In this document: one piece after another, positions 9,380-33,791 of the stretch | Numbering within the stretch: the stretch's first letter is position 1 | Layout of the letters: each line of letters begins with the position of its first letter | DNA from: a virus | Lineage: Duplodnaviria > Caudoviricetes | Reading direction: 5' to 3' (one strand) | DNA: 64,000 nucleotides | IMG/VR virus record: IMGVR_UViG_3300036824_000037 | Location: 32,001-96,000 of that record | Position numbers and translations under genes: made by a program | The notes under the pieces: model-generated | What the model was told of the DNA's origin: nothing | The model's input: only the letters and a program-made list of their open reading frames with translations | The model's database searches: none

Positions 9380-10369
9380 GTGCACATGAGCGCGTCGCCG
9401 GATGTCCAGCGCAAGCACCGCGCGGCGGACGCGTTCCTCGAACGCGGCTGGCATCTGATCCTGATCGGGCCGACCCGCAAACCCCTGCGCAACTGCGACC
9501 TGTGCCGCGACGCGACCGACAACGAGCACTACGTGCCCCACGGCAGCGTCGAGGACTGCCCCCACGAGCCGGAGACCTGCCACGGCTGGCAGGCCGGAAC
9601 CCTCGACCCGCACCGCGTACACCGGCTGATCGAGGCGAACCCGTCCGCGAACCTCGGCGTCGTCACCTCCCTCTCCCGCCTCGTGGTGATCGACCTCGAC
9701 GTCAACAAGCGGGGCGCCGCGCCGCCGGAGACGTACCGCGGCATGCTCGGGATCAACGACGGATGGGACGCGTTCGCCGCCGTGCTGCAACGCTACGAGC
9801 AGCGCTGGCCGGACGACACCCTGACCCTCGACACCCCGTCCGGCGGACTGCACCTGTGGTGGACGCTCCCGGCCGGGCTCACCATCACCTCATCCAGCGA
9901 GGGCAAATTCGCGTGGCTCGTGGACGTGCGCGCGCAGGGCTCGTACGTGCCCGCGCCGGGCACCCGCACCCGCGACGGCGAATACAAGCGCTGGGCCGGA
10001 GTGATGGACCCGGCGCCCGCACCCGGCTGGCTCCTGTCGCACCTGAAGGCCACCGGACACTTCCCCGAGCCAGCCAAGCCGCGCGGCACGTACCGCTTCA
10101 CGCCGAAGCCGGGCGCCGCAACGGATGGCGAGGAACGCCTGGGCCGGATCGCCGACGCCCTCGTCTCGGCGCCGGAGCACACCGGACACGCCGCACTGTG
10201 CACCGCGACTACGGCCGCCGCCCACCTGGTCGCGGACGGAATCGTGGACGAGGCCCGCGCCTACGATGTGATCCTGGACGCCGGCCGAGCGCGCGACCGC
10301 ACCGACCCGGAGATCAAATCGGCGTGGCGCACCGCGCTCGCCAAGGCCGAAACGGGGAACCATCGGTGA
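9380..10369 (+). CDS. Bifunctional DNA primase/polymerase (Prim-Pol)
   Basis: ANLGV, LVVIDLD, TPSGGLHLWW, VDVRAQGSYVPAPG motifs. Confidence 0.9.
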   Translation: MHMSASPDVQRKHRAADAFLERGWHLILIGPTRKPLRNCDLCRDATDNEHYVPHGSVEDCPHEPETCHGWQAGTLDPHRVHRLIEANPSANLGVVTSLSRLVVIDLDVNKRGAAPPETYRGMLGINDGWDAFAAVLQRYEQRWPDDTLTLDTPSGGLHLWWTLPAGLTITSSSEGKFAWLVDVRAQGSYVPAPGTRTRDGEYKRWAGVMDPAPAPGWLLSHLKATGHFPEPAKPRGTYRFTPKPGAATDGEERLGRIADALVSAPEHTGHAALCTATTAAAHLVADGIVDEARAYDVILDAGRARDRTDPEIKSAWRTALAKAETGNHR

Positions 10370-11760
10370 GCGCACCCGCCGTCACCAACACCGGCCTCGT
10401 CGAGAGCGACGAACCGGACCCGTGGGCCGTCGTCGATCCGCCGGGGCGCGCGCCCGCAGATCGTCCCGGCCTGCTGCCGGAGGAGTTCTGGGACGCGCGC
10501 GCCGTGTTCAACCACATCCGACGGGCGGCCCACTCACAGGCGTGCTCCGGCGATGTGGCCTTCTGGGCGACGCTTTCCCGCCTCTCCGCGATGCTCTCGC
10601 ACCACATCCGCGCCCAGACGGACATCGCCGACCGCGCATCGCTGAATTTGTTCGCTGCGCCGGTCGGGCCGTCCGGCACCGGGAAGTCCACCGGGGCGAG
10701 GGTCGCCCGCAAGATGATGCCGACGCCGTTCGAAGGCTTCCTCGACGGCATGCCGATCGGCACCGGGGAGGGGATCGCCGAGGCGCTGATGGGTACCGTT
10801 GACCAGGACACGGGCAAGTTCAACAAGGGGGAGCCCGTCACGATCAAGGTCCGCAAGCAGGTGCGGCACAACGTCTTCTACTACGTGGATGAGGGCGCGA
10901 CGCTCGCTCAGATCGCGTCCCGGCCGGGCTCCACGCTCGGTGAGGCGATCCGCAGCGCGGCGATCGGCGAGTCCCTGGGGCAGACCAACGCGTCGGAGGA
11001 ACGCAGACGGTTCATCGAGGCAGAGACCTACAGCATGGGCATGGTCATCGGGTTCCAGCCCAGCACCGCTCTGCCACTGCTTTTGGAGTCCGGCAAGGGG
11101 ACGCCGCAGCGATTCTTCTGGCTTTGGTCGATCGACCCGTCCATCCCGCGCAGGGGCTTCCCGTGGCCCGGTGGGATCGAGATTCCCGGGGAGTTCATCT
11201 CCCGCGACTGCCCGCTGGACGTGACGTTCCCGCAGCGGATCAAGGACGAGTTGCGCGACGCGCTGGTTGACCGGGCCACGGGGGAAGTCGAGGTTGCGGA
11301 ACTCGACGGGCACGCGGGCCTGATGAAGGTGAAGGCGGCCGCGCTGTTCGCGCTGCTCGACGGTCGCACGGACGCCAGCGAAGAGGACTGGTCCCTCGCT
11401 GAGGTCGCGTGGGCGTGCTCGTGCGCTGTGCGGGACGCGCTGATCGAGCGCGCGCAGCGTGAGGCTGCGGTGCAGCGCGAGCGGGAAGACGACGCCAAGG
11501 TGCGCCTCGCCGTGCGGACGCACGACGCGAAGAGTTCGGCCGACCGCGACGCTCGGCGTATCGGTCTCGCGATCTGGCGCCACGCATCCCGATCCGGAGG
11601 CATCTCCCTCGGAGCATGCCGTAAGGCGCTCGCTGGCCGGGACCGGGATCTCTTCGACAAGGGCCTCGACTACGCGGAGGCGGAGGGCTGGGTGTTCGTA
11701 GAGAGGAACCAGATCTGCGTCTGCGCGGGCGTCGCGCCGGAAGGTGGACAGCGGTCGTGA
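10366..11760 (+). CDS. DUF3987/YfjI-type P-loop ATPase, putative replicative helicase
   Basis: Walker A GPSGTGKS, Walker B YYVDEG, GFQP, GTPQRF; GTGA overlap with prim-pol. Confidence 0.75.
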   Translation: MSAPAVTNTGLVESDEPDPWAVVDPPGRAPADRPGLLPEEFWDARAVFNHIRRAAHSQACSGDVAFWATLSRLSAMLSHHIRAQTDIADRASLNLFAAPVGPSGTGKSTGARVARKMMPTPFEGFLDGMPIGTGEGIAEALMGTVDQDTGKFNKGEPVTIKVRKQVRHNVFYYVDEGATLAQIASRPGSTLGEAIRSAAIGESLGQTNASEERRRFIEAETYSMGMVIGFQPSTALPLLLESGKGTPQRFFWLWSIDPSIPRRGFPWPGGIEIPGEFISRDCPLDVTFPQRIKDELRDALVDRATGEVEVAELDGHAGLMKVKAAALFALLDGRTDASEEDWSLAEVAWACSCAVRDALIERAQREAAVQREREDDAKVRLAVRTHDAKSSADRDARRIGLAIWRHASRSGGISLGACRKALAGRDRDLFDKGLDYAEAEGWVFVERNQICVCAGVAPEGGQRS

Positions 11761-13901: not shown

Positions 13902-14446
13902 CGGCCAGGCCGCGCCTCACCCCGCCAGGGCGCGTCGCGCCAAACCGGGCCGGGCCATGCCACGCCTGCCATACCTGGCCCGTCCTCGCCGCGACGCGCC
14001 CAGCCAGGCCGGACCCCGCCTGCCGTGCCATGCCTGGCGATACCTCGCCTAGCCACGCCTGCCACACCAAGTCGGAACCCGACCCACCTGGCCAATCCGG
14101 GACTGGACGCACCATGACGTGCCGGAACGCGCCTGCCAGTACCTGCCAAGCCATACCGAGCCGAGCCCGGACCTGCCGTGCCTGCCGCGCCATGCCGTGC
14201 CGGGCTCTGCCGGGACGGGACACGCCGGGACTCGCGATGCCCTACCTGCCCCACCGAGCCGGGCCTAGCCTATCCGCGCCCTGCCTGGACGAGTCCGACC
14301 GAACCGGGCCTGCCGGGACCCGCCAAGCCTCGCCGTGCCTCAACGCGCCTATCCGTGCCGAGCCCGAACTCGCCCCGCCTGCCGGGCCATGCCAAGCCAA
14401 ACCGCGCCAAAACCACCGTGCCCAACCACGCCAGGACGTGCCTGCC
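13902..14446 (-). ncRNA. Guide-like array: 9 units of GGCA + 7-14 GGY-NN pentamers (VIPR-like)
   Basis: Manual parse of - strand. Units start at 14446, 14383, 14314, 14250, 14186, 14137, 14063, 14024, 13970; lengths 63, 69, 64, 64, 49, 74, 39, 54, 69. 73 of 101 pentamers start with exact GGY; NN is variable. Begins 4 nt after the accessory gene stop. Confidence 0.85.
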
Positions 14447-14450
14447 GCGC

Positions 14451-14888
14451 TCACGCAGCGGCGCTATCCGCCCCGCCGACGTCCTGACGCACCATCGCCA
14501 CGAACTCCTCGAACTCCCTGTAGCGGCGATACAGCGCCTTCCACTCCCGCTCCATCGCCCGCAACACCAACTCGCTGCGAAAAGGATCCTCCCGCACCTC
14601 CTCGGCCGGGTCGTACGCGTACCCGTCCTTCGACGGCACCGACACGAACGCCCGCACCGACTTGGCCGGCCCCGACTCGTCGGCCTCCCGGTACGCGATC
14701 CGCACACTGCGGATCAACTCGCGCGCCTGGTGCAGCCGGTACGCCTCGCCCGCGGCCGAGTCGTCCCACTCGAACCGCGAGTGCAGCGGATGCGACGGCT
14801 CGCGCGCGGCGGTCACCACGTGCCTGTCTGCGAGCGTTCCGTACTGTGAACGGATCGCCAGCAGTTCCGAACGCAGGTCGGTGCTCAC
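14451..14888 (-). CDS. Conserved accessory protein of the RAMP-array locus
   Basis: HPLHSRFEWDDSAAGEAYRLHQARELIRSV motif; GTG start overlaps the RAMP stop (GTGA). Confidence 0.8.
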   Translation of the reverse strand: MSTDLRSELLAIRSQYGTLADRHVVTAAREPSHPLHSRFEWDDSAAGEAYRLHQARELIRSVRIAYREADESGPAKSVRAFVSVPSKDGYAYDPAEEVREDPFRSELVLRAMEREWKALYRRYREFEEFVAMVRQDVGGADSAAA

Positions 14889-15520
14889 GCAGCCACCAGC
14901 TCGCGGAGTCCGCGCACTACCTCGACCGGGCGGTTCGGGTCCAGGACATAGGTGCCGAAGTCGCCGTCCTTCTCCGGACGCCACTCGCCAACCCCGACGC
15001 CACCCCCACCGGCCTCGATCAGCGAGAGCACCGATTCCTGGGTGAGCGCCGAGGTGACGTACGTGACCTCCAGCGTCGCCGACCAGGGCAGGAACTGCGG
15101 CCGGTAGCGCAGGTCCGAGCCGCTGCGGTTGACCGTGACCACGTCCTCGCGCATCACCGGCTCGCCGACGATCCGCACGAGCCCTCGGCCATCGGAGCCG
15201 ATCTCGCCACGGAAGAACATGTACTGCTTGAGCGCGGTCATCGTGACGCCGCTGAAGAGGCGCGCACCGCTGACGGTGGCCGCCTTGAACGCGAGGGCGG
15301 GAAAGCCGTATCCGCCGTCGGCGAGCCGGTAGAACGCGGCCTCGTACTCGCCCTGCGGGTCCTTGTTCTGCTTGGGCGCCTTGCGGCCCTGCATGTTGTC
15401 CAGCATCTGGCGCTTGGCCTTCTCGCTGAACTTGTGCACGATCAGCGGCGCGGTCCCGGCGATGGGGACGTGGATCGTCTCGGTGCCGATCCGGCTGATG
15501 TTGATCGTGGCATCGGTCAT
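14885..15520 (-). CDS. Cas7/RAMP-like RNA-binding protein (Vipr-like), 211 aa
   Basis: RAMP-like elements: first strand IHVPIAGTAPLIVH, GFPALAFKAA, C-terminal Gly-rich loop GGGGVGVGEWRPEKDGDFG; GGAGA RBS; no other cas genes nearby. Confidence 0.75.
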   Translation of the reverse strand: MTDATINISRIGTETIHVPIAGTAPLIVHKFSEKAKRQMLDNMQGRKAPKQNKDPQGEYEAAFYRLADGGYGFPALAFKAATVSGARLFSGVTMTALKQYMFFRGEIGSDGRGLVRIVGEPVMREDVVTVNRSGSDLRYRPQFLPWSATLEVTYVTSALTQESVLSLIEAGGGGVGVGEWRPEKDGDFGTYVLDPNRPVEVVRGLRELVAA

Positions 15521-15589
15521 GGCTGTCTCCAGAGAGAGATCAAGGGAATGGTGAGTTTTCAGCCACTCCGCGCCACGAACCGTGCGAGC

Positions 15590-15620
15590 AGTATAGGAGA
15601 TGCAATGCGAAGATATGCAA
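15590..15620 (-). promoter_or_regulatory. Putative promoter of the RAMP-accessory-array operon
   Basis: TTGCAT-19 nt-TATACT on - strand, 70 nt upstream of the ATG; spacer longer than usual. Confidence 0.55.
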
Positions 15621-33069: not shown

Positions 33070-33791
33070 CGAGCGCGTGCGCCAGGTACTGGACGGGACG
33101 ATAGCCGCCCGCCCGCCTAGGCGCGAATCGTTTCCCGCCACATCGCGCGTTTCGTTGCGTGGCGTCGCCTTTCGTCATCGCTTCGTTGCGCGACTCTGGC
33201 CAGAAGCGTTCGATTGGATCGCTGCGCACCACAGTGCCACCATCGGGGCCATGGCAACTGATCGGCCGTTGACCACCGCCCAGACCCAGGCGCTGCGGTA
33301 CGTCCAAGACGTGACCGCGACGGCATTGGACCGCTGGCCGCAAGCGAGCGACGAGGAGCGGCGGGACCTGCTCGCGTCGCTGCGCCTTCACGCGGACCAG
33401 GCGGCGCTGCTGCTGCACGCGGACCTGGACGGGAGTGGCCGATGATCCGCGCGTATGTGGCGCACGCCCAGTACGGCGGCGCGGTCGCGATCTCCCTGGT
33501 GTTGCACGGCGCGGAGCCGGACATCCCGCGCCGGATCCTGCGGGTCGTCTCGTCCGGTGAGGGCGACGAGTACCGGATGCACACCGAGTGGCATCAGTTC
33601 GACCCCTATGACGCGGTGCCGCCGACGCTGACTCTGGGCCACGACGAGGCGATCGCGCTGATGGAGGCGCTGCGCACCCACTACTCGGGCGTGGACGACG
33701 CGCGGATGCTGCGGTCGGACTACGACAAGGAACGCGGCCGAGTGGATGACCTGCTCAAGGTCGTGTCCGAGGTGGCACTCGGGAGGGCGGC

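What the first reader, a model, noticed from the sequence alone, without database searches (positions are those of the whole stretch)
13902..15620. Stand-alone Cas7/RAMP-like gene + accessory gene + GGY-NN pentamer array: candidate RNA-guided system with a gapped code
Seen: on the - strand a promoter, a 211-aa protein, a GTGA-coupled 145-aa protein, then 545 nt that parse into 9 units of GGCA plus 7-14 pentamers with a constant G(G/T)Y triplet and a variable NN. Eight of nine unit lengths are 5n+4 (69, 64, 64, 49, 74, 39, 54, 69); unit 1 is 63. The NN strings differ between units, unlike a satellite repeat. Known: the protein carries RAMP hallmarks (first strand ending G-x-x-PL, P-x-x-x-x-K helix, terminal Gly loop) and Cas7 proteins polymerise on RNA with a fixed nucleotide step. 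Inference: each unit is a guide, one subunit binds each pentamer and exposes NN. No Cas1/2, nuclease or CRISPR repeats are present, so binding/repression is more likely than cutting. I recall a recent report of such phage loci under the name VIPR, so the class may not be new even if this locus and its targets are.
Basis: partly seen in the sequence, partly recalled or inferred. Interest (0 to 1): 0.97.

Follow-up and report, generated by a model that had tools for sequence, protein, structure and literature searches.

The report
Phage VIPR guide-RNA silencing system
A 129-kb high-GC phage carries a VIPR system, a CRISPR-related RNA-guided DNA silencer first described in 2026 preprints, so the finding is real but is a new example of a known kind.

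Summary
On the minus strand lie a 211-aa gene, a GTGA-coupled 145-aa gene and a 545-nt array of 110 five-base units.

The 211-aa protein is a Vipr. Its family profile matches the solved SUSP1 Vipr (PDB 36pp) over the full length at E 1.2e-12. Its model has a Cas7 fold (Z 11.6) and keeps the GGY-binding residues.

The array holds 10 guides of 6-15 units. They abut through a GGCA(G) one-base overlap, the "staggered array" of the VIPR discovery preprint (fig. S18). It has no SUSP1-type 3' tails.

The accessory protein is unrelated to SUSP1 vap1. Its resemblance to a winged helix is weak.

Of 117 homologous loci, 106 carry a same-strand array and none an opposite-strand one.

I found no target for any guide, either in exact scans of viral and metagenome contigs or in mismatch-tolerant scans of the phage and its relatives.

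One extra: the only guide core shared with close relatives matches the operon's own -10 region under the published one-base-skip rule. This may mean autoregulation but is unproven.

This scan has already followed up VIPR loci in other genomes (38 notes, at least 33 genomes).

Verdict: new member of a known kind, modest interest.

The parts
15590..15620 (-). Putative promoter: TTGCAT (15620-15615), a 19-nt spacer, then TATACT (15595-15590). The block is conserved in six related loci.
   Evidence: Sequence read and alignment of six loci. The sigma-70 consensus scanner did not call it, so it is inferred.
15591..15604 (+). A 14-nt site that matches the first five NN units of guide v8 under the one-base-skip rule. 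It overlaps the -10 box.
Evidence: It is the only occurrence of this pattern in the 128.8-kb record.
14885..15520 (-). vipr: 211-aa RAMP/Cas7-like guide-binding protein.
   Evidence: phrog_4652 at E 1.5e-40. PDB 36pp 'SUSP1 Vipr protein' at E 3.9e-5 with the single sequence and 1.2e-12 with the profile. hhalign to SUSP1 gp039 gives 98.2%. AF2 model pLDDT 93.9. Best fold matches are Csm3/Cmr4/Cas7, Z 11.6.
14451..14888 (-). vap-type accessory gene, 145 aa, translationally coupled to vipr (GTGA). The N-terminal ~100 residues are weakly winged-helix-like and are followed by a C-terminal helical hairpin.
   Evidence: phrog_15946 at E 1.4e-30. AF2 model pLDDT 89.5. Fold matches to forkhead, MarR and ArsR winged helices reach only Z 5-5.8. 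A homologue lies next to vipr in about 104 of 117 loci. No similarity to SUSP1 vap1.
13902..14446 (-). vrRNA array: a leader GGCA(G) followed by 10 abutting guides, 110 pentamer units in all.
14413..14442 (-). Guide v1, 6 units.
14379..14413 (-). Guide v2, 7 units, ends GGCA(G).
14310..14379 (-). Guide v3, 14 units.
14246..14310 (-). Guide v4, 13 units.
14182..14246 (-). Guide v5, 13 units. Its reverse reading spells a GxGxxG-type peptide.
Evidence: No matching gene was found.
14133..14182 (-). Guide v6, 10 units.
14059..14133 (-). Guide v7, 15 units.
14020..14059 (-). Guide v8, 8 units. It is the only guide whose five-unit core is shared with relatives, and that core matches the locus's own promoter.
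13966..14020 (-). Guide v9, 11 units.
13902..13966 (-). Guide v10, 13 units, with no terminal GGCA.

Best explanation
This is a VIPR (Viral Interference Programmable Repeat) system of a 129-kb high-GC phage.

Inferred for this locus: one operon is transcribed from about 15590 towards 13900 on the minus strand. It yields Vipr, a small accessory protein and a long precursor RNA.

Shown for SUSP1 and P. fulva VIPR, inferred here from homology and conserved contact residues: Vipr protomers polymerise on the RNA, one per GGYNN unit. They bury G1, G2 and Y3 and expose the NN pair.

Inferred: each one-base register shift at GGCA(G) ends one filament and starts the next, so the precursor gives about 10 separate guide complexes of 6-15 units.

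Shown for type II systems, with indirect support for this clade: each complex binds double-stranded DNA whose sequence reads NNxNNx..., skipping one base per unit, and blocks transcription.

The only accessory gene is a possibly DNA-binding protein and no nuclease is present. The outcome is therefore most likely silencing of a competing mobile element, not cleavage. The targets of these ten guides are unknown.
For: Homology to a solved Vipr:
- phmmer against PDB 36pp_D gives E 3.9e-5.
- The family profile A1 gives E 1.2e-12 over residues 19-198.
- hhalign to SUSP1 gp039 gives 98.2% probability, E 2.9e-14.

GGY-contact residues named in bioRxiv 10.64898/2026.04.26.720927 align as follows: H17 to H29, R138 to R140, D177 to E179, W178 to W180, R179 to R181. 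R140 and R181 are invariant in 50 homologues.

Fold: pLDDT 93.9. The top 30 or so structural matches are all Cas7-family subunits, Z up to 11.6.

Array: statistics.

Family-wide linkage: 106 of 117 homologous loci have an array on the gene's strand and none on the other. 74% of 754 register-shift junctions read GGCAG. Guide length peaks at 10-11 units.

NN hypervariability: against a relative whose Vipr is 91% identical, no guide shares more than 3 consecutive NN units, except one.

The one-base-skip rule appears to hold in this clade. Three relatives' guides hit neighbouring genes of other loci at 90% NN identity or better, against 0.33 expected from shuffled guides. Two of these hits lie in frame with the skip on the wobble base.

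Viral context: portal, capsid and tape-measure genes are present.
Against: There are no RNA data, so transcription, processing at GGCA|G and RNP formation are not shown for this locus. According to the preprint's text, small-RNA sequencing confirmed only the ribozyme-interspersed and single-vrRNA architectures, not staggered arrays.

The promoter and terminator are not called by consensus scans.

26% of units deviate from GGY, mostly to GTY; whether Vipr tolerates these is unknown.

D177 is Glu here.

No target was found for any guide, so activity against any DNA is unproven.
Confidence: 0.93

Rival explanations
1. It is a VIPR locus, but guide v8 is a negative-feedback guide. Its five-unit core binds the operon's own -10 region, so the Vipr RNP throttles its own expression. 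This adds to the main reading rather than replacing it.
For: - The pattern GT.TA.GA.AT.CA occurs once in the 128.8 kb, at 15591-15604 over the -10 box. Any five-unit window of any guide is expected 0.05 times per 200 nt.
- The same core and the same promoter site are present in all six loci of the subclade.
- It is the only guide core conserved among them.
- The three promoter positions that vary among the six loci are all skip positions.
- 40 control windows never reached a run of 5 in five of the six distinct loci; in L040 7% did.
Against: - Only 5 of 7-8 units match (10 bases). That is below the floor of 12 informative positions used in bioRxiv 10.64898/2026.10.15.759431.
- The six loci count as one evolutionary event, so shared ancestry can explain the co-occurrence.
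- Promoter function alone could conserve those bases; the variable skip base at 15593 is the least constrained position of a -10 hexamer.
- Other subclades show no own-promoter match. Across all loci there are 3 independent cases against about 1.7 expected.
- The core can also form a small hairpin, which could be what is conserved.
- The preprint reports no self-targeting hits at 80% NN or better.
Confidence: 0.3
2. The guides are aimed at host genes, for example a defence or metabolic gene with a GxGxxG nucleotide-binding motif, rather than at rival phages or satellites.
For: Other follow-ups in this scan report guides that spell motifs of restriction or modification genes; I did not check those.
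Against: With up to 3 mismatches, v5 hit only one place in 401 Actinomycetes genomes, inside a yidC gene, which is chance level. There was no exact match in viral or metagenome contigs. Published natural targets are mostly satellites and prophages. The host of this phage is unknown.
Confidence: 0.15
3. The array is a decayed or non-functional remnant, or an RNA sponge or decoy, and does not guide DNA binding.
For: 26% of scaffolds are not GGY. No targets were found. Guides v1 and v2 are short (6-7 units).
Against: The same GTY and other variants occur throughout 106 related arrays. Both genes are intact with coding-type GC3. The key residues are kept. The guide lengths fit the family distribution.
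Confidence: 0.05
4. It is not an RNA-guided system at all: a simple G-rich satellite, or a Gly/Ala/Arg-rich coding region beside an unrelated RRM protein.
For: Long ORFs cross the array on both strands.
Against: Those ORFs lack coding GC3. Register shifts every 6-15 units would break any reading frame. TRF sees no satellite there. The array is strictly co-oriented with vipr in 106 of 117 loci from many phyla. There is direct homology to a solved Vipr.
Confidence: 0.01

Closest known systems
VIPR systems with staggered vrRNA arrays (bioRxiv 10.64898/2026.04.26.720920, fig. S18 legend)
   Same: A lone Vipr RAMP gene plus one small vap gene. The GGY/NN pentamer guides abut so that the end of one is the start of the next, with a one-base overlap. 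The locus is phage-encoded and has no cas genes or CRISPR repeats.
   Different: Nothing essential differs. Three details are not stated in the preprint's text: the overlap unit is almost always GGCAG (74% of 754 junctions), GTY is the main variant scaffold, and one guide core matches the locus's own promoter. I cannot say which of the seven types this is, because the type definitions are in figures that are not held as text.
Type II VIPR of Escherichia phage SUSP1 (Vipr structure PDB 36pp; bioRxiv .720920, .720927 and 10.64898/2026.10.15.759431)
   Same: The Vipr proteins are homologous (E 1.2e-12, hhalign 98.2%). The G1, G2 and Y3 contact residues are conserved. The gene order is vipr-vap-array. 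Guides are GGYNN runs of about 10-15 units.
   Different: SUSP1 vrRNAs are separate genes, each with a 40-60 nt structured tail, and one lies upstream of vipr. Here there are no tails and no upstream vrRNA. The accessory protein is unrelated to SUSP1 vap1. The matched stretches of Vipr are about 31% identical.
Cas7 backbone subunits of class 1 CRISPR effectors (Csm3, Cmr4, type VII Cas7, Cas7-11)
   Same: RRM core, thumb and glycine-rich loop fold (Z 9-11.6). Polymerisation on a guide RNA with a fixed nucleotide step.
   Different: The step is 5 nt rather than 6. The guide is non-contiguous. There are no CRISPR repeats, no Cas5, Cas6 or large subunit, and no adaptation genes. Sequence identity is 8-16%.

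Membership tests
VIPR | Vipr protein: a single-RRM RAMP with thumb and G-loop, homologous to characterised Vipr | tested here: met
   PDB 36pp at E 1.2e-12 with the profile. hhalign to SUSP1 gp039 at 98.2%. Cas7 fold, Z 11.6. G-loop GGGGVGVGEWRP.
VIPR | Residues that bind G1, G2 and Y3 of each repeat (SUSP1 H17, R138, D177, W178, R179) | tested here: met
   They align to H29, R140, E179, W180 and R181. The Asp-to-Glu change is conservative. R140 and R181 are invariant in the family.
VIPR | An adjacent, co-oriented array of at least 4 tandem GGY/NN (YNNGG) units | tested here: met
   110 units in 10 registers, starting 5 nt after the vap stop codon. It is the only array in the record.
VIPR | Scaffold conserved and NN hypervariable between related loci | tested here: met
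   Nine of ten guides share at most 3 consecutive NN units (4 in one case, with L005) with any relative, including one whose Vipr is 91% identical.
VIPR | Minimal locus (vipr plus vap) with no cas genes or CRISPR array, in a viral genome | tested here: met
   No Pfam, NCBIfam or PADLOC hit for either gene. No CRISPR-type repeat. The record encodes portal, capsid and tape-measure proteins.
VIPR | vrRNAs are expressed, processed and co-purify with Vipr | not testable with these tools
No RNA data are available for this metagenomic phage.
VIPR | Guides recognise dsDNA by the one-base-skip (NNx) rule | tested here: inconclusive
   No target was found for this locus. In the same clade, 3 relatives' guides reach 90% NN identity or better on neighbouring genes, against 0.33 expected, and two of them are codon-phased.
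VIPR type II (SUSP1-like) | Each vrRNA ends in an invariant structured 3' tail or pseudoknot | tested here: not met
   Guides abut with a one-base overlap and no tails. SUSP1's tails are visible for comparison. The array shows no folding signal (z -1.28).
VIPR type II (SUSP1-like) | vap1 accessory protein | tested here: not met
   BLASTP E 16 and hhalign probability 0.2% against SUSP1 gp038.
CRISPR-Cas class 1 | CRISPR repeat-spacer array and a multi-subunit cas operon | tested here: not met
   No repeats with a 55-80 nt period in the window. There are no other cas genes near the locus: neighbours are Prim-Pol, GntR and Thg1-like genes.

The most novel reading that the evidence does not exclude
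In this actinophage subclade the VIPR operon regulates itself. One short guide, the only one kept while all others turn over, pairs through just five NN units (15 bp of target, the five-subunit period reported for the DNA-bound filament) with the operon's own -10 box. This would be a built-in negative feedback not described for VIPR, and it would imply that a partial five-unit match is enough for function.
Probability: 0.3. Interest if true: 0.5.

Novelty: new member of a known kind. Interest (0 to 1): 0.3.

Why it matters
The class was published in 2026, so this locus does not change the picture. It has three uses.

First, it belongs to a very large Vipr clade (3,459 clusters at 50% identity) that shares the staggered GGCAG-joined array. 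By the preprint's own text, that architecture has not yet been checked by small-RNA sequencing.

Second, the same architecture occurs in cultivable Gordonia and Mycobacterium phages (UmaThurman, Ecliptus, Saal and 26 other mycobacteriophage records). Processing and targeting could therefore be tested at the bench in M. smegmatis or Gordonia terrae.

Third, the own-promoter match gives a concrete and cheap test of whether VIPR systems autoregulate, and of how few units suffice for binding.

Tried and rejected
Target searches, all negative:
- All ten guides against the phage's own 128.8 kb gave best scores at the shuffled-guide level.
- All guides against 117 related loci (0.9 Mb) and against four whole related phages (327 kb) were also at null level.
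- 501 relatives' guides against this phage were at null level.
- Exact NNx patterns in viral contigs gave 0 hits for v3, v7, v5, trimmed v10, trimmed v4 and v9.
- Exact patterns in metagenome contigs gave 0 hits for v5 and trimmed v3.
- v5 with up to 3 mismatches in 401 Actinomycetes genomes gave one hit, in yidC, which I judge chance.
- v5 in five related virus records gave 0 hits.

Exact scans cannot see the 80-95% matches that the preprints accept, so these blanks do not show that targets are absent.

Host identification failed. I first took the two 1,200-aa genes at the end of the record for rpoB and rpoC. The query found nothing in an actinomycete genome, and Pfam shows one of them is a tape-measure protein. 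The portal protein has no close isolated relative (25% identity at most), and the window has no tRNA genes.

Other negatives:
- No Rfam family.
- No folding signal in the array or its 3' end.
- No consensus promoter, and no terminator at the end of the array.
- Foldseek found nothing for the accessory protein.
- No complex prediction was run, because no protein-protein binding is claimed.

Full report
**What is there**

On the minus strand of the window, a 211-aa ORF (14885-15520) is followed by a 145-aa ORF (14451-14888). The second starts inside the first one's stop codon (GTGA). Both have the GC3 expected of genes in this 71% GC genome, 0.92 and 0.89.

Five bases after the second stop codon a 545-nt stretch begins (14446-13902). 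Its bases repeat with period 5: identity at lags 5, 10 and 15 is 0.46-0.49, against 0.22-0.35 at other lags.

A dynamic-programming parse allowed 5-nt units and 4-nt steps. It gives 110 units: GGC 65, GGT 16, GTC 12, GTT 5, other 12. G1 is kept in 97% of units and Y3 in 95%. The last two bases use 15 of the 16 possible dinucleotides.

The register drops by one base at each GGCA|GG. Counting every register shift there are 10 guides, of 6, 7, 14, 13, 13, 10, 15, 8, 11 and 13 units.

A caller run on the whole 128.8-kb record finds no second array. 12 of the 28 runs called fall in these 540 nt, and only here do runs reach 6-10 perfect units. Markov shuffles give 3-18 short runs of 4 or more perfect units per genome. 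ORFs that cross the array lack coding GC3, and TRF sees no satellite or CRISPR-type repeat.

**What the proteins are**

Neither protein hits Pfam, NCBIfam or PADLOC. Both fall in PHROGs of unknown function.

The 211-aa protein alone matches the PDB chain 36pp_D, "SUSP1 Vipr protein", at E 3.9e-5. A profile of 50 diverse homologues matches it over nearly the whole length at E 1.2e-12. hhalign against gp039 of the SUSP1 genome record gives 98.2% probability.

The residues that the cryo-EM preprint names as holding G1, G2 and Y3 (H17, R138, D177, W178, R179) align to H29, R140, E179, W180 and R181. R140 and R181 are invariant in the family.

The AlphaFold model is confident (pLDDT 93.9). Its best structural matches are uniformly Cas7-family subunits such as Csm3, Cmr4, type VII Cas7 and Cas7-11. 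Foldseek gives E down to 4.6e-6 and VIA-align gives Z up to 11.6. This is a Vipr.

The 145-aa protein also models well (pLDDT 89.5). Its first ~100 residues resemble winged-helix DNA-binding domains only weakly (Z 5.0-5.8, below the level the tool calls reliable) and are followed by a helical hairpin. It is unrelated to SUSP1 vap1.

**Relatives**

The Vipr family is very large: 4,246 hits in the word-indexed search and 3,459 clusters at 50% identity.

I fetched 117 loci encoding homologues of 32-91% identity. They come from Actinomycetota, Alphaproteobacteria, Clostridia, Dehalococcoidia, Planctomycetota and other groups, and from isolated phages.
- 106 of the loci have a GGYNN array on the gene's strand and none has one on the opposite strand.
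- About 104 have a homologue of the accessory gene beside vipr.
- 74% of 754 register-shift junctions read GGCAG.
- Guide length peaks at 10-11 units.

The architecture is thus a conserved property of this clade. [quoted passage not shown] By contrast, SUSP1 (type II) has separate vrRNAs, each with a 40-60 nt tail.

The NN bases turn over fast. Against a phage whose Vipr is 91% identical, nine of the ten guides share no more than three consecutive NN units.

**Context**

The record is a phage genome with portal, major capsid and tape-measure genes at its ends, and CheckV rates it complete. The locus sits in a replication and regulation region next to Prim-Pol/DUF3987, a GntR regulator and a Thg1-like gene.

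No isolated phage is close. Whole relatives that carry the most similar VIPR cassette share only about 1-8 kb with this phage. The cassette therefore moves between otherwise unrelated phages.

**How it most likely works**

By homology, Vipr polymerises one protomer per pentamer, hides GGY and presents NN. The complex binds dsDNA that reads NNx per unit and blocks transcription. These steps are shown for SUSP1 and P. fulva VIPR and inferred here.

I infer that the one-base register shift is what separates guides, because a filament with a 5-nt step cannot run through a 4-nt step. Whether a nuclease then cuts at GGCA|G is unknown.

The skip rule gets indirect support in this clade. I tested 372 relatives' guides of 10 or more units against 1 Mb of loci. 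Three reached 90% NN identity or better, against 0.33 expected from shuffled guides. Two of these hits lie in frame in a gene downstream of another phage's VIPR locus, whose translation reads like a ParB-type motif (my recognition, not a tool result), with every skipped base on the wobble position.

For the window's own guides I found no target anywhere I could look (see Tried and rejected). Most of the large-collection searches could see only perfect matches.

**One thing beyond the published picture**

Its first five NN units (GT, TA, GA, AT, CA) match plus-strand 15591-15604 with one-base gaps, over the TATACT box upstream of vipr.
- This pattern occurs only once in the 128.8 kb. Any five-unit window of any guide is expected 0.05 times per 200 nt.
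- All six loci of the closest subclade have both the site and the guide core.
- It is the only conserved guide core among those loci.
- The three promoter positions that differ among them are all skipped positions.

Several points count against the idea:
- Only 10 bases pair.
- The six loci are one lineage.
- Promoter function could conserve the same bases.
- Other subclades show nothing similar.

I rate autoregulation at about 0.3.

**Comparison and verdict**

The locus meets every defining feature of VIPR that sequence can test. It fails the two features specific to type II, the tail and vap1. Four preprints of 2026 cover the class, and this scan has already followed up VIPR loci in other genomes (38 notes in at least 33 genomes). 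It is a new member of a known kind.

Noticed in passing
L002:3632-3940 (Gordonia phage UmaThurman NC_031249, record 33354-33662): The staggered vrRNA array lies almost exactly under the annotated CDS gp40 'hypothetical protein' (L002 3640-3963), so gp40 is probably a mis-annotated non-coding array. In Mycobacterium phage Saal the annotated gp51 starts at L003 2833, inside the upstream array (2598-2842) and about 170 nt before the Vipr match. That start is probably too early.
   Followed up: partly
L054:6434-8619 (IMGVR_UViG_3300036832_001295): This relative has a second array of at least 2.2 kb that runs to the end of the fetched stretch. The locus as a whole has 46 GGCAG junctions and about 50 guides, by far the largest array seen in this set.
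   Followed up: no
L116:5664, L078:5836, L109:8320: Guides of alphaproteobacterial relatives (L113 at 1534, L088 at 5370) match a gene a few hundred bases downstream of other phages' VIPR arrays, in frame, at 24/26, 20/22 and 23/26 NN bases. The gene's translation reads like a ParB-type motif (my recognition, not a tool result). This suggests that relatives target each other's neighbouring early genes.
   Followed up: partly
window 14236-14227, 14044-14035; many sites in L040: The non-canonical scaffold CGC usually follows a unit ending AT or AA (GGCAT CGCNN, GGTAT CGCNN, GGCAA CGCNN), though CGC after TC and AC also occurs in L039. This hints at a context-dependent variant unit. In v8 the same bases can form a 5-bp hairpin.
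   Followed up: no
window 15545-15588 (-) and the same place in L039-L043: An 18-nt block just downstream of the -10 box (ACGGTTCGTGGCGCGGAG in the window) is almost invariant in the six loci, while the flanking sequence varies. It may be the transcript's 5' leader or a binding site.
   Followed up: no
G402 (IMGVR_UViG_3300025915_000013) vs G000: The phage with the most similar Vipr (91% identity) shares only about 8 kb at 76% nucleotide identity with this 129-kb phage. The vipr-vap-array cassette is therefore exchanged between otherwise unrelated phages.
   Followed up: partly
window 9380-11760 (+): The Prim-Pol domain (9380-10369) and the DUF3987-like part (10372-11760) lie in different frames, and a long ORF (9502-11760) overlaps both. 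This is either two adjacent genes or a frameshifted primase-polymerase.
   Followed up: no
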